44,002 nucleotides of DNA, taken from UHGV virus genome UHGV-0243075. One strand, written 5' to 3'. Under the pieces are notes generated by a model. The model made no database searches and was not told the origin of the DNA. It saw only the letters and a list, made by a program, of their open reading frames with translations. The stretch comes from a virus. Below, piece by piece: positions 7,047-41,952 of the stretch; positions within the stretch are counted from its first letter, which is position 1, and every line of letters starts with the position of its first letter. The translations under genes were made by a program, and so were the position numbers.

Positions 7047-7249
7047 CTATATTTGAACCTCCCTCCTATAGCACATGTCCTTAATAGAAACAGGTCCTAG
7101 CTCATAGAGTAAACGGCCTGGAGGTTGAAAAGCGGATGCAATTTCCGGCATGTGCGTTTTGGGACACGCCAAGTCCTACAAAATGGCAAACCGTTGGTGG
7201 ACGGTTACACACCTACAAATAACCTAATAACGGAAAAGGAGAATCATCA

Positions 7250-7870
7250 ATGAAAACCGAAGAATTAAAAGCACAGGGATTGACAGAGGAACAGATATCT
7301 TTTGTCATGGCTGAAAATGGGAAAGACCTCAAAAAGTTGCAGAAAGAAAACGACAATCTGAGCGCGGACCGGGATACCTGGAAAGAAAAAGCAGAAGCGG
7401 CAGAAACAACGCTTAAAGGCTTTGAAGGGGTTGACCTGGAGACGATGCAGAAAGAGTTGTCTGACTGGAAACAGAAGGCTACAGAAGCCGAAAAAAAAGC
7501 CCAGGAACAGATTTATGAGCGTGATTTTGCGGACGCACTAAAAACAGAATTTGAAGGAATTAAATTTTCCAGTGAGGCAGCAAAACGGGCAATCATGGCA
7601 GAAGTGAAAGAGGCCGGATTGAAATTGAAAGATGGGAAAATATTGGGCTTAAATGACCTTATTTCTCAGATGAAAGAGAAAGATGCTTCGGCGTTTATTG
7701 ATGAGGGACAACAAAAAGCACAGCAGAATGCAGCGCGGTTTACACAGCCTTTCCAGAGGCAGAATCAGAGCGGAGGAATAACGAAAGACCAGATTATGGG
7801 GATTAAGGATGCCTCCGAGCGGCAGTCCGCTATTGCTGCGAACATTCATTTATTTGGTAAAGGAGAGTAA
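7250..7870 (+). CDS. Scaffolding protein.
   Basis: Strong RBS AAAGGAG. Highly charged coiled-coil protein immediately upstream of the major capsid gene. Confidence 0.7.
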   Translation: MKTEELKAQGLTEEQISFVMAENGKDLKKLQKENDNLSADRDTWKEKAEAAETTLKGFEGVDLETMQKELSDWKQKATEAEKKAQEQIYERDFADALKTEFEGIKFSSEAAKRAIMAEVKEAGLKLKDGKILGLNDLISQMKEKDASAFIDEGQQKAQQNAARFTQPFQRQNQSGGITKDQIMGIKDASERQSAIAANIHLFGKGE

Positions 7871-22593: not shown

Positions 22594-22831
22594 AAATATG
22601 CAACACGAAATGCAACACGGAGCCTATAAACCGCATAAAACCGTTATATTTTACGGGTCCGATTCCCGTCAGCAGCTCTTCCATAAAACCTTGTAGATAC
22701 GGGAAAAACAACGTATTTACAAGGTTTTTTCGTGTTTTGATACAGCACTTCCTACGCCTACCACGGTGGAAAATATGCTATTTTTTATTATATATGCAAC
22801 ACGATGCAACACGAAAAATATGCTATTTTAT
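22594..22831. repeat. attP-like repeat cluster abutting the integrase 3' end. Direct repeats of ATGCAACACGA occur in two pairs, AAATATGCTATTTT occurs twice, and there is an inverted copy of ACACGAAAAA.
   Basis: 22594-22620 reads aaatatgcaacacgaaatgcaacacgg. 22769-22831 reads gaaaatatgctatttttt...atatgcaacacgatgcaacacgaaaaatatgctatttta. An inverted copy lies at 22718-22735. Confidence 0.5.
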
Positions 22832-23922
22832 TACATGCTGTTTAATTTTTCAAAGTGCTTATTAATTTTTTTATTCTGCCGGACGCTTTCCAAGTCAATT
22901 ACATTTCTGTATACTGCTTTCATGATATTGTCGCTGGCCCATCCTCCCCGCTGCAAAATATATTGGTCCGGTATGCCTATGGCGTGCATAATGGATGCAG
23001 CATAATGCCGGAGGTCGTGAAAGCGGAAATGGGGTATATCAATCTTTTTGAGTACTCGTCCGAATCGGTGTGTGATGTAATCCGGGTTCATATCAACCAA
23101 CTTTCCTTTTTTTTCAGATATCCGGTCAATTACAAATGCGGGCATTTCTACATCCCTTGTACTATCATCCGTTTTAGGCTGTTTGATGTACCATTGATTG
23201 TCTGGCCCCTTGACCATATTGTCTCTTACATGGATAATACGACCCTCTACATTTTTATCAGTAAGGGCGCTTATCTCTCCGCGTCTGAGTGGTCCAAAGG
23301 CTGCTAGTAAAACAGCTATTTCTAAATCAGTACCTTTGATTGCCTCCAGCAGCTTTTTAATATCATTGTCATTGGGGCAATATAATTCAGGACGTTTTTT
23401 CTGAGGAAGTTTAACTTTTAGAGTTAAATCCGGTGCAAACATCTCCAGGGATGCAGATAACAGGCCATAGGCATTTCGGACTGTCTTTGGAGAGAGTTGT
23501 TTAGAGGCCAAATCACTTATCCATATCTGTACAGATGGATTCGTTAGTTCTGAGAGCCGTTTACGCCCAAATGCTCCGCCGAAATACTGTCTTTGCATAC
23601 CTGTGTACCCTCTAAGCGTGGAAGGGCTTAAAACGCCTTTCTTGACGTTTAAATAACGTTCAATAGCTTGGTTCACTGTTATATCTTCGTCCTCGTCCTC
23701 ATCCGGTTCATTGTATTGCTCTATGGGCTTATCTTTCATATCTAATTTCCATCGAGTAGCCATTTCCTTTGCTTCCTTGCGTGATGGAGCAACAAAGCTT
23801 TTGTAATGCCGCTTGCCTTTATCATCTGTATACAGATACACTTGCACTCGGACATTTCCAGACGGCAGTTCTCCTTTTTTCTTTTTCGGGGCTTTCTTTG
23901 TCATTTCTCTTTCCTCCTTCAA
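22831..23922 (-). CDS. int: Tyrosine integrase (site-specific recombinase, phage integrase family).
   Basis: C-terminal catalytic region ...HDLRHYAASIMHAIGIP...GGWASDNIMKAVYRNV has the R...H-x-x-R...Y pattern. Basic N-terminal arm-binding domain. Confidence 0.85.
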   Translation of the reverse strand: MKEEREMTKKAPKKKKGELPSGNVRVQVYLYTDDKGKRHYKSFVAPSRKEAKEMATRWKLDMKDKPIEQYNEPDEDEDEDITVNQAIERYLNVKKGVLSPSTLRGYTGMQRQYFGGAFGRKRLSELTNPSVQIWISDLASKQLSPKTVRNAYGLLSASLEMFAPDLTLKVKLPQKKRPELYCPNDNDIKKLLEAIKGTDLEIAVLLAAFGPLRRGEISALTDKNVEGRIIHVRDNMVKGPDNQWYIKQPKTDDSTRDVEMPAFVIDRISEKKGKLVDMNPDYITHRFGRVLKKIDIPHFRFHDLRHYAASIMHAIGIPDQYILQRGGWASDNIMKAVYRNVIDLESVRQNKKINKHFEKLNSM

Positions 23923-25300: not shown

Positions 25301-25518
25301 CCTCCATAATGTGCATCATATTCAATGTTCTGTACATCATCTTTTTCAAAATCATTTCCTTCTAAATGCCTCATAACATGCCAGAACCTCTGTCTTTGAG
25401 ATTCCCTGGTTGCATTTTTATCTAAAAATATAGTAACGGTTCCATCCTCATTAGGCGTTACGGCTTCATGTATTTTTCCAGATGGAAAGCTAATCAATTG
25501 GACATGGTAGTCAATCAA
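25291..25518 (-). CDS. Small protein co-transcribed downstream of the repressor (overlaps it by 8 nt). Function unknown.
   Basis: 75 aa containing ESQRQRFWHVMRHLEGNDFEKDD. Operonic with the XRE repressor. Confidence 0.45.
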   Translation of the reverse strand: MIDYHVQLISFPSGKIHEAVTPNEDGTVTIFLDKNATRESQRQRFWHVMRHLEGNDFEKDDVQNIEYDAHYGGCS

Positions 25519-25891
25519 TATTACCCCGTTCCTTTCTCTTTAAAGCAAGCAACATATCGTGTGTAGTTTTCAAATCATCTGGCTCTGCGTCTCTGGCGGC
25601 ATCGAATAGCAGACGTAATTCTTTGTTTTCGAAAATGTCTTGTGCTATGGCCGCAGTTTCTGAATTGATATAGTAGCTATCAACTTCTGCCTTCTCGTTT
25701 CCGGGCATTAAATCATTTACCGACACTCCAAAATAGTCAGCTATTTGCTGGAGTTTTTTTATTGTCGGACTTGTGCCTCTGGTCTTGAACTTACCAATAT
25801 ACCCCCTTCCAAATCCCAATTCCTTTTCTAAGGCCGTAATCGCAATTCCACGTTGTTTGCAAAGGTCAGAAATTATATCGTATGTTGTCAT
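25511..25891 (-). CDS. XRE-family HTH repressor (CI-like lysogeny repressor).
   Basis: N-terminal HTH LCKQRGIAITALEKELGFGRGYIGKFKTRGTSPTIKKLQQIADYFGVSVNDL. CAGGAGG RBS. Divergent from the cro-like gene. Confidence 0.8.
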   Translation of the reverse strand: MTTYDIISDLCKQRGIAITALEKELGFGRGYIGKFKTRGTSPTIKKLQQIADYFGVSVNDLMPGNEKAEVDSYYINSETAAIAQDIFENKELRLLFDAARDAEPDDLKTTHDMLLALKRKERGNID

Positions 25892-25909
25892 GGTGGCCTC
25901 CTGATAAAA

Positions 25910-26094
25910 GTAGAAAAAAGTCTACAAAAACTATTGACAACATAGAATATAGTCTGTATAATACAAATATACGAGGTAGAAAAAAGTCTACTAAATGTAA
26001 AATACAGATTTTGATGTTGTCTATGATTTTGCTGGTAACTTGATTATAGAATAAAATCTACATCATGTCAATATATAAGGTAGAATTTTTTCTA
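25910..26094. promoter_or_regulatory. Immunity-region operator and promoter cluster. Two exact 16-bp sites GTAGAAAAAAGTCTAC (25910-25925, 25976-25991) flank a consensus TTGACA-17-TATAAT promoter (25934-25962). A third, degenerate site lies at 26080-26094.
   Basis: Direct reading. GTAGA/TCTAC half-sites. The promoter has TGTATAAT. Confidence 0.6.
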
Positions 26095-26549
26095 AATAAA
26101 GAAGGGAGGGAAAACAAAGAAACCGCCAGAAGGCTATTTCTGACGGTTCAATGCTAAATTTATTTACCCTATGTACTTTGCAGGTTTTCACCGCGCTTTA
26201 TAGCCCAAACGCTTCTTTAAGTACCCTGTCACTTATGCAGTTTTAGTTCTGCGGAGTGTGCGCCCATTAGCTGACAGGTTATAAGGAGTACATAATACGG
26301 TGGGATATTATAGGATATCAACCATGAGTTTTTGCCTCTTCTCTGAGGAACTCCGCCGTATTTGCCACTACATTTGACCAGTTTAAAGTGCTTTGGTTCC
26401 ACTATTGCGACCTTATATTAAGGGAACAGGGCAAGACAGTTTTTTTATAAGCATAGAAACCTCCTTGCCCAAGTATGGGTCGAATATATTCTAACATGGT
26501 TCATAGGAAAAATCAAAGAAAATTTTCTATATTTTAAGGGGGTGATATA

Positions 26550-31746: not shown

Positions 31747-31950
31747 ATGAATAAGGTTATAAATGATATTGGAGATTTGCAGACGAATTATCAGGTTTTA
31801 ATTGATGAAAAACGGTTATCTAAAAAGGCAATGTGTGACTTGGTGATACCATTTAGGGATAAGTACGGACTTACCGATTTGCAGGCATTACAGATTGCAA
31901 GGAACGAACTGACAATCGCAGAGATTAACTTACTTATTCTACAAAACTGA
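31747..31950 (+). CDS. Hypothetical protein.
   Basis: GGAGG RBS upstream. Confidence 0.5.
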   Translation: MNKVINDIGDLQTNYQVLIDEKRLSKKAMCDLVIPFRDKYGLTDLQALQIARNELTIAEINLLILQN

Positions 31951-32044
31951 CATTTTGGTATCTATTCCCCTTGCGGGATGATACATACAACGGTAATGAT
32001 TACTGGTCAGATTGCTAATATGTCACGACATACTTTCTGACCCT

Positions 32045-32088
32045 GGGACGGGACCTATCAAACCTCCTTTACCCGTCCCGAAAGGAGG
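32045..32088 (+). promoter_or_regulatory. Alternative-hairpin translational control element. Stem GGGACGGG/CCCGTCCC (32045-52 with 32072-79) competes with the anti-SD/SD stem CCTCCTTT/AAAGGAGG (32063-70 with 32081-88).
   Basis: Both 8-bp helices are perfect and mutually exclusive. The second sequesters the RBS of the ORF starting at 32095 (TTG). Confidence 0.5.
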
Positions 32089-32094
32089 GATTAT

Positions 32095-32478
32095 TTGAAG
32101 AATAAGCGAACTGTTAGTGAAGAAGTTAAAGCAAGAGTATATAATGCGCTCCTTGTAGGAAAAGAGAATGCATTGAACCGGGATGAATTAGTATCCAAGA
32201 CAGGAGAAAAGGACAGAGATGTAAGAACCGCGGTAGAGATGTTAAGGCATAATAAAGTGATTCTTGCCTTGCCAACAGGCAAAGGTTACTATGTACCCCG
32301 TGACGATGCACAGGGACGGCAAGAAGCCTATAAATGGCTGGAAAGCCAGAATAGCCGGATAGAGAGCATAAAGGCGGCAGAACGTGGCGCACAGCTATTT
32401 TTAGGACGAAATAAGAAGAACAAAAGAAAGAATACCGAAATCCCTGGACAACTGAGTATGTTTGGTACTGGATTATGA
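32095..32478 (+). CDS. Winged-helix-like DNA-binding protein (replication-module accessory).
   Basis: TTG start 6 nt after AAAGGAGG. Lys/Arg-rich C-terminus. Confidence 0.5.
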   Translation: MKNKRTVSEEVKARVYNALLVGKENALNRDELVSKTGEKDRDVRTAVEMLRHNKVILALPTGKGYYVPRDDAQGRQEAYKWLESQNSRIESIKAAERGAQLFLGRNKKNKRKNTEIPGQLSMFGTGL

Positions 32479-33134
32479 GAGATAGTGTTGTATTTTATCG
32501 CAGCTTCTGGGAAGCCATTAAGCAGCTGCCGGAAAAAGAAAGATTGGAATCTCTTACAGCAATCTTAGAATATGGACTTGATGAAATAGAACCTAAATCA
32601 GCAGGTGTTGCATCAGCAATGTTTTTAATGGCAAAACCACAAATTGATGCAAATAATCGTAGATACCAAAACGGAACCAAGGGTGGTAGGCCAGCAACCA
32701 AAACAGAACCAAACCATAACCTAGAATCCAATTATAATAAACCAAGTGATAACCAAACCATAACCAAAGCAAAACCTAAGGAAAAGGATAATGTAAAGGA
32801 AAAGGATAATGTAAATGATAATAATAAAAAAACATTTACTCCACCTTCGGTGTCGGATGTGTCCGATTATTGCAATTTGAATGGATATGGCATTGACCCA
32901 GAGAGTTTTGTTGATTTTTATGCATCAAAGGGATGGATGGTTGGTAAAAACAAAATGAAGGACTGGAAAGCCTCGGTAAGGACCTGGGTGAGAAGCCAGC
33001 GGCAGGAATTGACCGCCAAAGGCAGTAAAAACCAGTTTCACAATTTTGACCAACGAGACACCGATTATGATGCATTGATGCTAAAACAGGTACAGGACTG
33101 GGTAGGGGAGAAACAGGATGAAGGAAATACATAA
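32475..33134 (+). CDS. Phage replisome organiser / DnaD-like replication initiation protein.
   Basis: N-terminal VVFYRSFWEAIKQLPEKERLE and C-terminal F.DFY.SKGW..GKNKMKDWKASVRTW, typical of Firmicutes phage replication organiser proteins. Confidence 0.6.
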   Translation: MRDSVVFYRSFWEAIKQLPEKERLESLTAILEYGLDEIEPKSAGVASAMFLMAKPQIDANNRRYQNGTKGGRPATKTEPNHNLESNYNKPSDNQTITKAKPKEKDNVKEKDNVNDNNKKTFTPPSVSDVSDYCNLNGYGIDPESFVDFYASKGWMVGKNKMKDWKASVRTWVRSQRQELTAKGSKNQFHNFDQRDTDYDALMLKQVQDWVGEKQDEGNT

Positions 33135-33378
33135 AAAAATACTGATGTTTGCAAAGCAATATATGCTGGAGCATGATTATCCACCCACAACCAGGGAAAT
33201 AGGAGAGGGCGTTGGATATACGTCAAGCTCTACAATTTGGGGGTATTTGCGTGATATGAGGGACATTGGCCTGATTAATTACACAGAAGAATGCCCTAGA
33301 ACTATAACAATTCCAGGGATGCATTATACGGATACGCAAGATAACATCACAGAAAGGGGAAAGCAAAATGCCGGATAA
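33118..33378 (+). CDS. LexA N-terminal DNA-binding-domain-only protein (no S24 peptidase domain).
   Basis: KKILMFAKQYMLEHDYPPTTREIGEGVGYTSSSTIWGYLRDMRDIGLI parallels the LexA winged HTH (ENGYPPSxREIGEAVGLxSTSTVHxHL). 86 aa. Confidence 0.6.
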   Translation: MKEIHKKILMFAKQYMLEHDYPPTTREIGEGVGYTSSSTIWGYLRDMRDIGLINYTEECPRTITIPGMHYTDTQDNITERGKQNAG

Positions 33379-33583
33379 TAAAATAAAGAGCCAATATTTG
33401 GAAAACTCAGAGCGTCAGAGAATGGCTGCCATCAAGGATATGGAGCGTAATCCATCCCCTATGACAAAAGCATTTTTAAGACCCGCTTATGATAGAACTG
33501 AGGCGTGTCCAATTTGCTGTAGACGGCCTAGTATGGCAAACACACATTTATGGAGGGGAGAAGATGAAGCACTTAAGCAATAG
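33368..33583 (+). CDS. Hypothetical small protein with CPICC.
   Basis: Overlapping start in the operon. Confidence 0.4.
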   Translation: MPDNKIKSQYLENSERQRMAAIKDMERNPSPMTKAFLRPAYDRTEACPICCRRPSMANTHLWRGEDEALKQ

Positions 33584-36673: not shown

Positions 36674-36804
36674 CATTATTAGAATTTGATGGAGGCGTAA
36701 GATGGAGATAAGCATTTTTGAGCGAAATGGGAAGACATGGACAAGATTTAAAGTCAAAGTAACAAGTTTTTATCATCTAAAACAGTGAAATTTGGGTTTG
36801 CACA

Positions 36805-36834
36805 TTGACAACAATATATTGGTTAGTGGATAAT
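36805..36834 (+). promoter_or_regulatory. Promoter TTGACA-18-GATAAT carrying the motif AATATTGRTTAGTGGAWATAA.
   Basis: Direct reading. Homologous to 37355-37390. Confidence 0.45.
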
Positions 36835-36853
36835 AAGTTTTGGAGGTGATACC

Positions 36854-37027: not shown

Positions 37028-37354
37028 CGGTTGGTGGTTTTTATTTTGAAAAACTGAAATAAATTGTGATTGAGGTAGAAAACGAAAGTTAAGCTAATGA
37101 TATAGCGGCAACGATGGACGGGGAAGACATTGCAGAGAATGACCCGCATGAGTATGCTATATGGAATGTAACCCCATTAACTTAAAACTTTTGGGAATAA
37201 AAAAGAGCCTTGCGGCCCTGCCCGACGTTTTACAAAGGTGAGGAATTGCAACCTCACAAGGGTCTACTGGCGGCTTTGCGTTCCCTATTATTTAAATTGA
37301 TTATAGCATTTTTTTGAGAATTACACAATAGCAATATTAGAATTTAAACGTACA

Positions 37355-37418
37355 TTGAAAATTTAATATTGATTAGTGGAAATAAAATGTTGACATTGGG
37401 TGTACCCTATGTTATAAT
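37355..37418 (+). promoter_or_regulatory. Tandem promoters. A homolog of the 36805 promoter (TTGAAA...GAAATA, carrying the same 21-nt motif) is followed by a consensus TTGACA-17-TATAAT at 37390-37418.
   Basis: Direct reading. Motif copy at 37366-37390. Confidence 0.5.
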
Positions 37419-39487: not shown

Positions 39488-39886
39488 ATGAGTTTGACAC
39501 CGAAGCAAAAGGCGTTTGCGGATTATTACATAGAGTGCGGGAATGCGGCAGAAGCTGCGAGAAAGGCTGGTTATAGCTTACGGACAGCAGACGCAATAGG
39601 ACGTGAAAACTTACGGAAGCCTACGGTTGCTGCATATATCTCTGAACGGCAGAAACAAATTGATGATTGCCGCATAGCTGATGCTGCTGAAATATTACAA
39701 TATCTTACCTCCGTAATGCGTGGAGAGGTCAAGGACCAATTCGGACTTGATGCTCCACTGGCAGAGAGAACCAAAGCGGCGGTGGAGCTAGCAAAGCGTA
39801 AGATAGATACAGATAAGAAGCAGGAGGGGGGCGGGATTACCATTGTCAACAACATACCAAGACCAGACAACAATAAATCTGACTGA
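39488..39886 (+). CDS. terS: Terminase small subunit (P27 / Terminase_2 type).
   Basis: MSLTPKQKAFADYYIECGNAAEAARKAGYS is the canonical small terminase N-terminus. Confidence 0.85.
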   Translation: MSLTPKQKAFADYYIECGNAAEAARKAGYSLRTADAIGRENLRKPTVAAYISERQKQIDDCRIADAAEILQYLTSVMRGEVKDQFGLDAPLAERTKAAVELAKRKIDTDKKQEGGGITIVNNIPRPDNNKSD

Positions 39887-40319
39887 CGTAATCGCCCCTT
39901 CTTTCTATGATGTTCATTGGGATATACTCGAAGGTAATCATACATATTATGACCTGTACGGTGGGCGAGGTTCCACGAAGTCCTCTTTCATATCTGTGGA
40001 GATTGTTTTGGGTATGATGGATGACCCAGAGGCTAATGCGGTAGTGTTTCGTAAATATGCGGTGACCATCGGAGAATCAGTCTTTGAGCAGATACAGTGG
40101 GCCATAGATGCATTAGGGGTAACTGATTTATGGGAATCACGTACAAGCCCATACCGATTCGTTTATAAGCCAACAGGGCAAAAGATAATATTCCGTGGAC
40201 TTGACAAGGCGAAGAAAACAAAGTCAATTAAAGCTAGTAAGGGATACTTCAAATATTTGTGGTTAAACACTTCTGACCACGTTAAACCCATTAAATTCAG
40301 GGAAACTCCTACAAAATAG
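39843..40319 (+). CDS. terL: Terminase large subunit, 5' part (ATPase, Walker A), interrupted.
   Basis: Walker A YGGRGSTKS. The ORF ends shortly after KYLWL, where a Walker B DE is expected. Confidence 0.75.
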   Translation: MSTTYQDQTTINLTDVIAPSFYDVHWDILEGNHTYYDLYGGRGSTKSSFISVEIVLGMMDDPEANAVVFRKYAVTIGESVFEQIQWAIDALGVTDLWESRTSPYRFVYKPTGQKIIFRGLDKAKKTKSIKASKGYFKYLWLNTSDHVKPIKFRETPTK

Positions 40320-41170
40320 GACAATCCTGAGCAAAGATTATTCGACATAATATTTAATAAATTCATCTTTTGTGGTATAATATAATAAACGAATTTAAGG
40401 AGAAAATACCATGAAAGAAATTTGGAGAATTATTAAAGGGTTTGAGGACTATGAGATTAGCAATACAGGAAGGGTAAAAAGCCATAAGCATGGCCGAGAA
40501 GTCATTTTAAAGCAAAGAGTATCGCATGATGGTTATGTATGGTACAACTTGTGCATGAATGGCAAACAGTACACAAAGCGAGCAAATAGGCTTGTGGCTG
40601 AGGCTTTTGTTAATAACCCAGAAAATAAACCTACAGTTAATCACATTGATGGAGATAAATCCAATAACAACGCAGAAAATTTAGAATGGGCTACCCGCGA
40701 GGAGCAAATGCAGCATGCTTATGCAAATGGCTTAAAAAAGCCAGTTCGAGGATATTTACAAGGGAATCATGTTTTGAGCGAAGATGAAGTGAGAGAAATT
40801 CGCAGAATTTATAAGGGACATAATAAAAAGTTTGGAATGAACGCTCTAGCAAAAAAATATAATGTAAGTCCTTCTGTAATTGATAAATGCGTAAGAAGAA
40901 AAAGCTATAAGAATGTCGAATAATAATGTGCAACGACTATCGAAAGGTATGTTATAGAGAAATCTATAACTGAGAACGAGTAGAGTAAGCCTCAAGTGAG
41001 GTTGAAAAAGTGGGGTGAGTGGAATTGGTAACAGATTCCATTTACATGATATAGTCTGAACACCATAGTAATATGGTGAGTGTATACGGAAACGGTATAT
41101 GCGTAACAAAATTGTGAAGAACTGGACGAATTTGCAGGACCGGAAGAAATACGAACTGTTGAACAATCAG
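40270..41170 (+). mobile_element. Intervening sequence in terL carrying a free-standing HNH homing endonuclease gene (likely a group I intron). Boundaries approximate.
   Basis: The terL reading frame breaks after roughly aa 140 and resumes at about 41107-41173 in another frame. An HNH ORF lies between. Confidence 0.55.
40411..40923 (+). CDS. HNH homing endonuclease (HNH_3 with an AP2-like DNA-binding region).
   Basis: NHIDGDKSNNNAENLEWATREEQMQHA. Strong RBS AAGGAG. Confidence 0.75.
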   Translation: MKEIWRIIKGFEDYEISNTGRVKSHKHGREVILKQRVSHDGYVWYNLCMNGKQYTKRANRLVAEAFVNNPENKPTVNHIDGDKSNNNAENLEWATREEQMQHAYANGLKKPVRGYLQGNHVLSEDEVREIRRIYKGHNKKFGMNALAKKYNVSPSVIDKCVRRKSYKNVE

Positions 41171-41952
41171 TGTTGCGCGGTGGAAGCAAGTTTGTTGTGT
41201 TTAAATCCTTCAACCCGCCTATCAGTCAAAGCAACTGGGCTAATCAGTATGTAAACACGCCGGATGATAGTGCATATAGACATAAAAGCGATTACCGTTC
41301 TGTGCCGGTTGAATGGCTGGGGGAAATGTTTATTGAGCGCGCTGAACATCTTAAAGCCACCAATGAGCGGGCATACAACCACGAGTATTTAGGCTTGCCG
41401 GTTGGACTTGGTACAAATATATTTGATATGCTGGATGTACGGACAATCACAGACGAGGAAATTCAGAAATACCAAAGCATATACCAGGGGCAAGACTGGG
41501 GCTGGTTCCCGGACCCCAAAGCATTTATCCGGGCCGCTTACATACCAAACAAAGAATTGGTTGTGTTGCTTGATGAAATGGGTGGCTGTAAAATTCGTAA
41601 CAGCAAGATGGCTGAGGATATACAGACGGCTGGGTACGATGATTATACAATCTATTGCGGTGTGGATGAAGAAGAAAGCATTATAGACTTCCGTGACGCT
41701 GGTTTACCGGCACGTAAAGCCATTGTAACACCAGGAAGCAGGAAATATACCTTTGAGTGGTTGCAGTGCCGTACAATCGTTATAGACCCGGCCCGCACGC
41801 CACGAGCATACAAGGAAATAATAGAGTATGAGCATGAGGTAGACGGAAACGGAGAAGTAATAGCGGATTACCCAGATGGAAATGACCACTGGATTGATGC
41901 TCTCCGTTATGCTACAAGCCCGCTATCAATGAGGAGAGGAAACAGCGCATGA
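41170..41952 (+). CDS. terL: Terminase large subunit, 3' part (nuclease domain).
   Basis: Continuation with terminase nuclease-domain-like segments (...VLLDEMGG..., DHWIDALRYA). The frame is open from 41107. Confidence 0.7.
   Translation: MLRGGSKFVVFKSFNPPISQSNWANQYVNTPDDSAYRHKSDYRSVPVEWLGEMFIERAEHLKATNERAYNHEYLGLPVGLGTNIFDMLDVRTITDEEIQKYQSIYQGQDWGWFPDPKAFIRAAYIPNKELVVLLDEMGGCKIRNSKMAEDIQTAGYDDYTIYCGVDEEESIIDFRDAGLPARKAIVTPGSRKYTFEWLQCRTIVIDPARTPRAYKEIIEYEHEVDGNGEVIADYPDGNDHWIDALRYATSPLSMRRGNSA

What the first reader, a model, noticed from the sequence alone, without database searches (positions are those of the whole stretch)
33118..33378. Phage-encoded LexA DNA-binding domain without the autoprotease domain
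An 86-aa protein reproduces the LexA N-terminal winged HTH (PPTTREIGE.VGY.SSSTIWGYL) but stops before any S24 peptidase or dimerisation domain. It could occupy host SOS boxes non-cleavably and so dampen or rewire the SOS response. Alternatively it could act as the phage's own SOS-independent regulator inside the replication module.
Basis: partly seen in the sequence, partly recalled or inferred. Interest (0 to 1): 0.6.

Follow-up and report, generated by a model that had tools for sequence, protein, structure and literature searches.

The report
Phage truncated LexA-like DNA-binding protein
A gut-bacterial prophage encodes a small, intact protein that is just the DNA-binding head of the SOS repressor LexA; this is a common, already-annotated phage protein type whose one studied relative (GIL01 gp6) switches on late phage genes rather than mimicking LexA, so the finding is real but fairly ordinary.

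Summary
ORF 33118-33378 (+) encodes an 86-aa protein that is a LexA-type winged helix (Pfam PF01726, 41.3 bits against a cutoff of 23.7). Its model superposes on LexA N-domains at 1.1-1.4 Å. No S24 peptidase remnant exists anywhere in the window.

It is not a pseudogene. All 19 close homologues are 50-101 aa, dN/dS is about 0.06, and the exact protein occurs on 212 contigs. Standalone LexA-DBD proteins form a very large group: 109 of the top 150 representative clusters are under 140 aa and only 3 carry an S24 motif.

In the Lachnospiraceae prophages examined, every locus with readable upstream sequence (59) places the gene at the 3' edge of the replication-initiation cassette. It either overlaps the organizer gene or follows a DnaC-like loader.

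The closest characterised relative is GIL01 gp6, which shares the same best PHROG (phrog_3502). gp6 is a truncated LexA homologue that binds its own palindrome and activates the late promoter.

I found no SOS boxes in this phage and could not identify an operator. The SOS-mimic idea is untested and less likely, but not excluded: 4 of 5 base-contact positions match Firmicute LexA.

Verdict: new member of a known kind, of modest interest.

The parts
33118..33378 (+). Gene for the 86-aa standalone LexA-type winged-helix DNA-binding protein (stop codon included).
   Evidence: ORF. Pfam PF01726 at 41.3 bits against GA 23.7. Fold matches LexA N-domains. dN/dS about 0.06.
33105..33110 (+). Shine-Dalgarno-like GGGGAG, 7 nt upstream of the ATG, inside the 3' end of the upstream gene.
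   Evidence: Read directly from the sequence.
33223..33249 (+). Codons for the recognition helix SSSTIWGYL (residues 36-44). These are equivalent to E. coli LexA Ser39-Leu47.
   Evidence: Alignments. Contact residues from PMC3091678.
33277..33327 (+). Codons for the wing beta-hairpin (residues 54-64) and the family-specific post-wing motif IPGMHY (residues 65-70).
   Evidence: DSSP on the model. Invariant P66 and Y70 and nearly invariant G67 in A2. Motif present in 45 of 150 representative clusters and absent from true LexA.
32475..33134 (+). Upstream gene for a DUF6291 replication-organizer-like protein (219 aa). Its stop overlaps the LexA-DBD gene by 17 nt, suggesting translational coupling.
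   Evidence: Pfam DUF6291 at 8.1e-20. In class-B loci the DUF6291 protein precedes a DnaC-like loader. The equivalent upstream genes in other loci hit PHROG replication-initiation, replisome-organizer and DnaD-like families.
33027..33131 (+). Codons for the conserved C-terminal organizer tail KNQFHNFDQRDTDYDALMLKQVQDWVGE... This tail is shared by otherwise unrelated organizer proteins.
   Evidence: BLASTP 86% and 63% identity over 35 aa while the rest of the proteins is unrelated. Present in 39 of 39 class-A loci.
32095..32478 (+). First gene of the conserved cassette: 127-aa protein (phrog_2113, function unknown), TTG start.
   Evidence: Conserved upstream of the organizer in WGY-type loci.
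33368..33583 (+). Downstream small ORF (71 aa, MPDNKIKSQYLENSERQRMA...). It overlaps the 3' end of the LexA-DBD gene by 11 nt and is conserved next to almost all parsed WGY-type copies.
   Evidence: No Pfam or PHROG hit. No similarity to GIL01 gp7.

Best explanation
The gene encodes a functional, non-cleavable, DBD-only LexA homologue of the GIL01 gp6 type, acting as a phage transcription factor rather than an SOS repressor. It is transcribed and translationally coupled with the replication-initiation genes in the rightward early lytic operon, so it accumulates only after infection or induction. Using the LexA-type recognition helix (SSSTIWGYL) and wing, it most likely binds a phage-specific operator as a dimer or higher oligomer. 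Oligomerisation may run through the conserved post-wing IPGxHY segment. By analogy with gp6, it would then time downstream (middle or late) phage transcription independently of RecA and LexA cleavage.

Shown: gene integrity, fold, absence of the protease domain, purifying selection, position in the early/replication operon, shared best PHROG with gp6, and lack of SOS boxes in the phage.

Inferred: DNA binding, oligomeric state, the target site, and the sign of regulation (activation or repression).
For: - Domain and fold.
- Not a decayed LexA: all 19 close homologues are 50-101 aa with PF01726 only. There is no S24 remnant and dN/dS is about 0.06. The exact protein is seen on 212 contigs.
- Operon position: the gene overlaps the organizer gene by 17 or 29 nt in 39 of 39 class-A loci. 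It lies 10 nt after a DnaC/DnaI-like loader in 15 class-B loci. The same position holds for the 50%-identical P0017 and for P0010. No promoter-like site lies between it and the upstream genes.
- Precedent: GIL01 gp6 (66 aa) hits phrog_3502 at 1.8e-21. That is the same best PHROG as the window protein (8e-11). gp6 also lies directly after the replication gene in the early operon.
- gp6 function: it is a truncated LexA homologue that binds GaCACAC GTGTGaC at -43.5 of promoter P3, not a LexA box, and activates late genes (PMC6182141).
- Base-reading positions vary between the two subtypes (W-G versus F-N) and are hypervariable over the standalone family, with 100 distinct helix 9-mers. This fits diversified, element-specific operators.
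- Tandem 2x to 4x DBD proteins exist in the family. This suggests the domain normally works on two or more half-sites.
- No ArpU, RinA or sigma-type late activator was detected among the early-region and pre-terminase ORFs scanned, so that role is unfilled. An HTH_3 protein upstream of TerS is an alternative candidate.
Against: - No operator could be identified. No palindrome family recurs in the window.
- Palindromes shared between related phages were either absent from the window (TGTGTG-N-CACACA) or lie inside a conserved RNA-like leader hairpin (TATGTC-NN-GACATA).
- The two best promoter-like sites before the late region (36805 and 37390) already have near-consensus -35 and -10 elements and would not obviously need an activator.
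- Identity to gp6 is only 29% over 51 aa, and gp6's essential Lys38 is Ser here.
- Several more genes separate this gene from the packaging genes.
- The invariant linkage to replication initiators could instead indicate a replication role.
Confidence: 0.5

Rival explanations
1. Replication accessory. The small winged helix is a subunit of the phage replication-initiation machinery. It could be an origin or iteron-binding specificity factor, or an adaptor working with the organizer, loader or host helicase. On this reading it is not a transcription factor.
For: - All 59 loci with readable upstream sequence (39 class A, 15 class B, plus L062-L065) place the gene immediately after replication-initiation genes. 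This holds across at least three non-homologous organizer N-domains (DUF6291, Lin1244_N, HTH_36/DnaD-like) and two cassette architectures.
- It overlaps the organizer stop codon, which implies stoichiometric co-expression.
- The organizer's conserved C-terminal tail and the small gene are inherited as one block while organizer N-domains are swapped.
- An iteron-like repeat cluster lies 300-450 nt upstream, inside the organizer gene (32665-32813).
- Distant standalone homologues give weak PHROG hits to replication-initiation proteins.
Against: - The organizers already carry their own N-terminal DNA-binding domains.
- The gene stays in place when a loader is interposed and the organizer tail is absent (class B), so it is not tied to the tail.
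- More distant family members sit in non-replication contexts: between an integrase or recombinase and the lysis genes in Bacillus phages 11143 and Wrath, and upstream of dinB/yolD in PVJ1.
- The one characterised relative, gp6, is also encoded just after a replication gene yet is a transcription activator. Position next to replication genes is therefore not diagnostic.
Confidence: 0.25
2. SOS mimic. The protein recognises the host GAAC-N4-GTTC LexA boxes. Because it lacks the cleavage site and the S24 domain, it would keep or restore repression of SOS genes during lytic growth.
For: - It is 37-45% identical to the DBDs of genuine full-length Clostridia/Bacillus-type LexA proteins.
- Four of the five positions equivalent to E. 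coli LexA contact residues Ser39, Asn41, Ala42, Glu44 and Glu45 (PMC3091678) are identical to Firmicute LexA: S, S, T, G. It is closer to LexA there than gp6 is.
- The phage genome has no SOS boxes of its own, so any such activity would be directed at the host.
- No protease domain is present.
Against: - The Glu44-equivalent is Trp (Phe in the sister subtype) instead of His. The two subtypes, from phages of the same host family, differ at both the Glu44- and Glu45-equivalents.
- These positions are hypervariable across standalone homologues. A single conserved host box would not predict that.
- At 44% identity to its host's LexA, gp6 recognises a different palindrome (PMC6182141).
- There is no LexA dimerisation domain. 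From established knowledge, isolated LexA N-domains bind operators much more weakly than the dimer.
- The gene sits in the lytic early operon, so it is not expected to be expressed in the lysogen.
- No paper describing such a mimic was found.
Confidence: 0.12
3. Decayed remnant. The ORF is the leftover N-terminus of a full-length LexA/CI-like S24 repressor and has no function of its own.
For: Only the superficial resemblance to the first 70 residues of LexA. TIGR00498 matches positions 8-89 of 203 only.
Against: - All 19 close homologues and 109 of the top 150 representative clusters are short.
- There is no S24-like sequence in any frame of the window.
- dN/dS is about 0.06, and dN=0 with dS=0.35 in one pair.
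- The start, RBS and overlaps with both neighbours are conserved.
- The phage's actual immunity repressor is a separate HTH_3 protein at 25511-25891.
Confidence: 0.01

Closest known systems
GIL01/Bam35 gp6 (ORF6, 66 aa; Fornelos et al. 2018, NAR 46:9432, PMC6182141)
   Same: It is a DBD-only truncated LexA homologue encoded by a temperate Firmicute phage. It shares the same best PHROG, phrog_3502. It has the same three helices plus wing. It is encoded in the early operon immediately after a replication gene and followed by small ORFs. It has a similar level of identity to host-type LexA DBDs (44% for gp6, 37-45% here).
   Different: Pairwise identity is only 29%. gp6's essential Lys38 is Ser here, and the recognition helix differs (SHKTAHRY versus SSSTIWGY). 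gp6 ends at the wing, whereas this family adds a conserved IPGxHY motif and a variable tail. The host phage is a tectivirus with protein-primed replication rather than a tailed Lachnospiraceae prophage. GIL01 carries LexA boxes and a gp7 co-repressor; this phage has neither. No gp6-like operator was found here.
Canonical LexA SOS repressor (TIGR00498; PDB 3jso, 1jhh, 3k2z)
   Same: The N-terminal winged-helix fold superposes at rmsd 1.1-1.4 Å. Four of five base-contact positions equal those of Firmicute LexA.
   Different: There is no linker cleavage site, no S24 Ser/Lys peptidase or dimerisation domain. It scores 41.9 bits against the 110.95 equivalog cutoff. It is phage-borne, sits in a lytic operon, and is not autoregulated by an SOS box.
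Annotated standalone 'LexA DNA-binding domain' proteins of Bacillales phages (Bacillus phage 11143 ADA84983.1, phage Wrath ANY29989.1, Psychrobacillus phage PVJ1 UAW07781.1) and PHROGs 3502, 362 and 24920
   Same: They share the DBD-only architecture at about 40% identity and the same PHROG families.
   Different: They sit in other genomic contexts: between an integrase or recombinase and the lysis genes, or heading a dinB-yolD operon. They are not at the end of the replication-initiation cassette. None has been characterised experimentally as far as I could find.
Other minimal single-domain phage or plasmid wHTH regulators (GIL01 gp1 and BldC; PefI/PapI)
   Same: They are 58-70 aa proteins that are essentially a bare wHTH and act by oligomerising on DNA (PMC11511902). 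PefI appears among the fold hits (rank 10).
   Different: They belong to different wHTH families (MerR-like, PapI-like), not LexA_DNA_bind. They serve only as a mechanistic analogy for how a domain without a dimerisation module can still work.

Membership tests
Pfam PF01726 LexA_DNA_bind (domain family) | Score above the curated gathering threshold over most of the model. | tested here: met
   41.3 bits against 23.7; profile positions 9-65 of 65.
Pfam PF01726 LexA_DNA_bind (domain family) | Three-helix winged-HTH fold superposable on LexA N-domain structures. | tested here: met
   The AF2 model (pLDDT about 85 in the domain) has LexA entries 3k2z, 1jhh, 3jso and 1lea as top Foldseek hits, at rmsd 1.1-1.4 Å over 65 columns.
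Canonical LexA SOS repressor (NCBIfam TIGR00498 equivalog) | Whole-protein score above the equivalog cutoff. | tested here: not met
   41.9 bits against a cutoff of 110.95; only model positions 8-89 of 203 are matched.
Canonical LexA SOS repressor (NCBIfam TIGR00498 equivalog) | C-terminal S24 peptidase/dimerisation domain with Ser-Lys dyad and an Ala-Gly cleavage site in the linker. | tested here: not met
   The protein ends at residue 86. tblastn with S24 domains finds nothing in the window (all E>0.9). There is no Pfam S24 hit.
Canonical LexA SOS repressor (NCBIfam TIGR00498 equivalog) | Binds the host SOS box (GAAC-N4-GTTC in Firmicutes) and is usually autoregulated through such a box. | tested here: inconclusive
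   The window has no perfect box and no excess of near-boxes. Four of five contact positions are LexA-like but the Glu44-equivalent is Trp. Actual binding is not testable with these tools.
gp6-type truncated LexA homologues of phages (phrog_3502; GIL01 gp6) | Sequence membership in the same phage protein family as gp6. | tested here: met
   Window protein phrog_3502 at 8e-11 (best PHROG). gp6 phrog_3502 at 1.8e-21. Direct BLASTP E=2e-6, 29% identity.
gp6-type truncated LexA homologues of phages (phrog_3502; GIL01 gp6) | DBD-only architecture, encoded in the early operon next to replication genes. | tested here: met
   Synteny in all 59 loci with readable upstream sequence.
gp6-type truncated LexA homologues of phages (phrog_3502; GIL01 gp6) | Lys38 in the recognition helix, essential for gp6 DNA binding and conserved among tectiviral gp6 homologues. 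| tested here: not met
   The aligned residue is Ser38. This implies a different DNA specificity, not necessarily a different mode of action.
gp6-type truncated LexA homologues of phages (phrog_3502; GIL01 gp6) | A dedicated palindromic site overlapping the -35 of the late promoter, with transcription activation. | tested here: inconclusive
   No convincing conserved palindrome was found at promoter-like sites. Activation is not testable here.
Phage replication initiator / replisome organizer (DnaD-like, O-like) | Significant match to organizer or initiator families. | tested here: not met
   The window protein has no PHROG or Pfam hit to initiator families. Only distant homologues give weak hits at E about 1e-4. 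The neighbouring gene is the organizer.

The most novel reading that the evidence does not exclude
The protein keeps enough LexA-like specificity (4 of 5 contact residues) to sit on host SOS boxes as an uncleavable repressor during lytic growth. In that case the phage would actively shut the SOS regulon down again after using it for induction. Possible targets include competing SOS-inducible prophages, SOS-induced defences, and repair functions. A widespread class of gut prophages would then carry an anti-SOS factor.
Probability: 0.1. Interest if true: 0.7.

Novelty: new member of a known kind. Interest (0 to 1): 0.3.

Why it matters
If the gp6-like reading is right, this family would extend the "truncated LexA homologue as phage timing regulator" design. 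That design is so far known from one tectivirus of Bacillus. The extension would be to abundant tailed prophages of human-gut Lachnospiraceae (Dorea, Enterocloster); the exact protein alone is seen on 212 contigs.

It would also give a concrete candidate for the still-unknown early-to-late switch of these phages.

There is a practical annotation point too. Some public records call these 86-aa proteins "SOS-response transcriptional repressor LexA", which is wrong and could inflate counts of LexA or SOS regulators in gut genomes.

The strict positional coupling to replication-initiation genes is a new but modest observation that would help guide experiments.

Tried and rejected
- **Pseudogene or decayed LexA.** Rejected: no S24 remnant, dN/dS about 0.06, and all homologues are short.
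- **Organizer tail as a specific docking partner.** I considered that the small protein docks onto the organizer's conserved NQFHNFDQR..DYDAL tail. This is weakened because 15 class-B loci keep the gene after a DnaC-like loader while their organizers lack the tail.
- **Tail in annotated phages.** tblastn of the tail against the phage collection found nothing.
- **Fusion with the organizer by +1 frameshift, or natural organizer-DBD fusions.** No tail-like motif occurs in any of the 150 representative homologues.
- **Rosetta-stone link via P0020.** I tested whether P0020 (DBD plus a Zn-ribbon-like tail) links the DBD to the downstream small ORF. There is no significant similarity.
- **Downstream small ORF as a gp7 analogue.** No similarity.
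- **Operator hunting.**
  - Full and core Cheo/SOS boxes are at or below chance.
  - No perfect 6-7-nt-arm palindrome family recurs in the window.
  - TGTGTG-N-CACACA is shared by five WGY-type loci but is absent from the window.
  - TATGTC-NN-GACATA lies inside a conserved leader stem and is better explained as RNA structure.
  - The repeats and the 40-bp palindrome around the 36805 and 37390 promoter-like sites are not conserved across divergent phages with the same DBD subtype.
- **Close relatives among annotated phages.** Megablast of 18 kb of the window found none.
- **Rfam match for the leader.** None, even at E<=1.
Full report
**1. Observation**

A GGGGAG Shine-Dalgarno sequence lies 7 nt upstream.

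The protein matches Pfam LexA_DNA_bind (PF01726) at 41.3 bits against a gathering score of 23.7, over essentially the whole model. Its best PDB sequence match is a LexA N-domain. An AlphaFold2 model built from 15 family members has pLDDT about 85 for residues 1-60 and below 50 for the tail (71-76 and 81-86). It shows three helices and a beta-hairpin wing. The top Foldseek hits in the PDB are LexA proteins from Thermotoga and E. coli, at rmsd 1.1-1.4 Å over 65 columns.

There is no protease domain. The protein stops at residue 86, the next ORFs have no Pfam hits, and tblastn with the S24 halves of two genuine LexA proteins finds only noise anywhere in the window. NCBI's LexA equivalog model scores 41.9 bits against a cutoff of 110.95 and aligns only positions 8-89 of 203.

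**2. It is a real gene, not a broken LexA**

All 19 homologues found among 5.8 billion proteins are 50-101 aa and carry PF01726 only. Codon comparison over the first 70 codons gives dN/dS of about 0.06 (window versus L019; L004 versus L043). One pair has dN=0 with dS=0.35. The exact protein is recorded on 212 contigs.

A profile search of 1.84 billion cluster representatives finds 9,443 clusters at E<=1e-3. Among the best 150, the median length is 99.5 aa. 109 are shorter than 140 aa, and about 30 are 140-195 aa, many with two tandem DBDs (one protein has four). Only 3 contain an S24 G[DE]SM motif.

**3. Genomic setting**

The window is a temperate siphovirus-like prophage:
- integrase at 22831-23922 (-)
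- HTH_3 immunity repressor at 25511-25891 (-)
- a rightward early operon with an HD hydrolase, an Erf/Rad52-like annealing protein and an HNHc_6 nuclease
- the cassette 127-aa protein (phrog_2113) - DUF6291 protein - LexA-DBD protein
- ASCH, PAPS-reductase and small genes
- terminase and structural genes

Hosts are Lachnospiraceae. A 99%-identical copy lies on a 44.4-kb contig of an uncultured Dorea sp. genome assembly. Relatives are in Enterocloster aldenensis and [Clostridium] clostridioforme. No similar annotated phage exists in the phage collection at the nucleotide level.

**4. Synteny**

I collected 47 IMG/VR loci plus metagenomic and genomic loci and parsed them.

- **Class A** (39 of 39 resolvable loci, including the window). 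The gene's start overlaps, by 17 or 29 nt, the stop of a 219-383 aa gene. That gene's N-terminal domain varies: DUF6291, Lin1244_N, or an HTH_36/DnaD-like type. PHROGs name the Lin1244_N and HTH_36-like partners replication initiation protein, replisome organizer, or DnaD-like helicase loader. All of these proteins end in the same roughly 35-aa tail, NQFHNF[DE]QR..DYDAL.L..V..W.GE.
- **Class B** (15 loci). The DUF6291-type organizer lacks that tail. It is followed by a DnaC/DnaI/IstB-like ATPase. After a 10-nt gap comes the LexA-DBD gene with a TTG start.
- Even the 50%-identical P0017 follows a Lin1244_N organizer with an overlap.

The small wHTH gene is therefore the constant element at the 3' edge of the replication-initiation cassette. 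It is co-transcribed and probably translationally coupled with it. It is not specifically tied to the organizer tail.

More distant relatives (about 40% identity) in Bacillales phages lie elsewhere. In phages 11143 and Wrath they sit between an integrase or recombinase and the lysis genes. In PVJ1 the gene heads a dinB-yolD operon.

**5. What it most likely does**

The literature holds a direct precedent. GIL01 gp6 is "a truncated homologue of LexA", 44% identical to B. thuringiensis LexA in the DBD. It binds the palindrome GaCACAC GTGTGaC centred at -43.5 of the late promoter P3, can bind together with LexA, and activates late transcription. Lys38 in its recognition helix is essential (PMC6182141).

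gp6 (66 aa) is encoded directly after the DNA polymerase gene in the early operon. It falls in phrog_3502 (E=1.8e-21), which is also the best PHROG for the window protein (8e-11). Direct identity is modest, 29% over 51 aa at E=2e-6.

By architecture, family and operon position, the window protein is best read as a gp6-type phage transcription factor. It would be SOS-independent because it is uncleavable, and it would be made together with the replication proteins. I put 0.5 on "phage-specific transcription regulator". The specific sub-claim "late activator" is weaker, perhaps 0.3.

I could not find its operator. No palindrome family recurs in the window. Candidates shared among related phages were either absent from the window or embedded in an RNA-like leader. 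The two strong promoter-like sites at 36805 and 37390 have near-consensus hexamers.

How a lone DBD binds is inferred. The family has an invariant or nearly invariant extension right after the wing: P66 and Y70 are invariant and G67 nearly so (IPGxHY). This motif occurs in 45 of the top 150 clusters and in none of the true LexAs. Tandem multi-DBD relatives also exist. Both observations suggest action on two or more half-sites.

**6. The SOS-mimic idea**

E. coli LexA contacts DNA through Ser39, Asn41, Ala42, Glu44 and Glu45 of helix III (PMC3091678). In the alignments these correspond to S36, S38, T39, W41 and G42. Firmicute-type LexA DBDs in my hit set have S, S, T, H, G (P0030, P0159). Four of five positions therefore agree, which is closer than gp6 (S, K, T, H, R). 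That keeps the idea alive.

Several points count against it:
- The deviating position is the Glu44-equivalent.
- The sister subtype (STSTIFNH) differs at both the Glu44- and Glu45-equivalents although its phages infect the same bacterial family.
- These two positions are hypervariable across standalone homologues.
- gp6 shows that 44% identity to LexA does not preserve box specificity.
- The protein lacks LexA's dimerisation domain.
- The gene lies in the lytic operon.

The phage itself is not wired to LexA. It has 0 perfect GAAC-N4-GTTC boxes and 7 one-mismatch sites against 11 expected. The related loci have 4 perfect boxes in 557 kb against 6.8 expected, while the same scan recovers GIL01's dinBoxes. 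I could not retrieve the host LexA or host SOS promoters, so host binding remains untested. I give this reading about 0.1.

**7. The replication-accessory rival**

The invariant position next to initiators, the coupling, the co-inheritance with the organizer tail and the nearby iteron-like repeats support a replication role at about 0.25. Against it:
- The organizers have their own DNA-binding domains.
- The gene persists when the tail is absent.
- Distant relatives are not replication-linked.
- gp6 has the same kind of position yet regulates transcription.

**8. Comparison and novelty**

The protein is a member of Pfam PF01726 and of phrog_3502. It is not a LexA: the equivalog cutoff, the S24 domain and the cleavage site are all not met. 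It works most like gp6, but it fails gp6's Lys38 criterion and has an extra post-wing motif, so I would call it a distinct subfamily of the same kind.

Public records already label it "LexA DNA binding domain [Caudoviricetes sp.]" or, wrongly, "SOS-response transcriptional repressor LexA". The finding is therefore a new member of a known kind. The new elements are the strict placement at the end of the replication-initiation cassette in Lachnospiraceae prophages and the two recognition-helix subtypes. Interest is about 0.3.

The most novel reading still open, an uncleavable anti-SOS factor, would deserve about 0.7 if true, but I rate it at about 0.1.

Noticed in passing
window 31945-32094: A conserved, apparently structured leader of about 130-150 nt lies upstream of the TTG-start 127-aa gene that opens the cassette (127 aa - organizer - LexA-DBD). 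It is nearly identical in more than 25 loci. It forms three hairpins, one with a compensatory change (GGGACGGG/CCCGTCCC versus GGGCCGGG/CCCGGCCC). The apical sequences of the first hairpin vary but all can form hairpins. A CCTCC anti-SD sits in a loop opposite the AAAGGAGGG SD. It has no Rfam match even at E<=1. RNAalifold gives -32 kcal/mol but only 1 fully compensatory pair.
   Followed up: partly
window 37186-37346 (also L008 9004-9164, L012 4565-4675, L013 8863-9020, L027 9100-9265): A conserved non-coding block occurs in several related phages. In L012 it sits at a different position (upstream of the replication cassette) and has an internal deletion. It contains the hairpin GAGCC-TTGC-GGC(C/T)C and the hairpin GGTGAGG-AATTGCAA-CCTCAC. 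The second hairpin has a compensatory GGTGTGG/CCACAC change in L027. It could be a small RNA, a terminator or a mobile regulatory element.
   Followed up: partly
window 26117-26278 (-), 7070-7156 (+), 7162-7226 (+): Three Rfam gathering-level hits: FuFi-1 RNA (135.7 bits) next to the immunity region, RAGATH-21 (83.8 bits), and GP20-b (39.4 bits), the last two lying just upstream of the ORF at 7250.
   Followed up: no
window 39843-41952: The large terminase gene appears split. The Terminase_3 N-part is at 39843-40319 and the C-part plus Terminase_3C at 41170-41952. A NUMOD4/HNH_3 homing-endonuclease ORF at 40411-40923 separates them, which suggests an intron or homing-endonuclease insertion. 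A similarly split terminase is seen in L009.
   Followed up: no
window 32665-32813: An iteron-like direct-repeat cluster lies inside the linker-coding part of the DUF6291 organizer gene. It includes ACCAAAAC(G/A)GAACCAA, AACCAAACCATAACC and a perfect 18-nt tandem AAGGAAAAGGATAATGTA x2. This is a plausible internal origin of replication, as in lambda O.
   Followed up: no
window 33027-33131; L004, L008, L043, L047 and others: Organizer proteins with unrelated N-domains share a nearly identical C-terminal tail, NQFHNF[DE]QR..DYDAL. The tail is present in all 39 loci without a phage-encoded loader. It is absent from the organizers of all class-B loci in which the organizer could be read (13 of 15), all of which encode a DnaC-like loader. 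This suggests the tail recruits the host loader or helicase.
   Followed up: partly
window 36802-36842 and 37332-37418: Two strong sigma-70-like promoters are present: 36805 (11/12) and 37390 (12/12 with an extended -10). Each is associated with one copy of a 41-nt direct repeat. A 40-bp imperfect palindrome (CAATATTA...TAATATTG) is centred at 37351/2, just upstream of the second promoter.
   Followed up: partly
proteins P0047, P0056, P0077, P0115; P0023, P0027, P0028, P0030; P0034, P0055, P0083: The LexA DBD is reused modularly. Some proteins fuse it to a conserved non-S24 C-terminal domain of about 100 aa (VFVLHGHW...YITEH). Others carry it in tandem arrays of 2-4 DBDs, or pair it with N-terminal Zn-ribbon-like segments.
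   Followed up: no
L002 6001-7802 (Psychrobacillus phage PVJ1): A 67-aa standalone LexA-DBD gene heads an operon with a dinB/Pol V-like polymerase and a YolD-like protein. This looks like a phage-borne translesion cassette with its own uncleavable LexA-like regulator.
   Followed up: no
window 25900-26100: The divergent immunity region contains several copies of (G)TAGAAAAAAGTCTAC in direct and inverted orientation. These are probably the operators of the HTH_3 repressor. No LexA box is present there.
   Followed up: no
public annotation of the protein cluster: Some sources (JGI/IMG and NCBI records) name these 86-aa proteins 'SOS-response transcriptional repressor LexA' or 'LexA repressor'. 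This is a misannotation, because the protease/dimerisation half is absent.
   Followed up: yes
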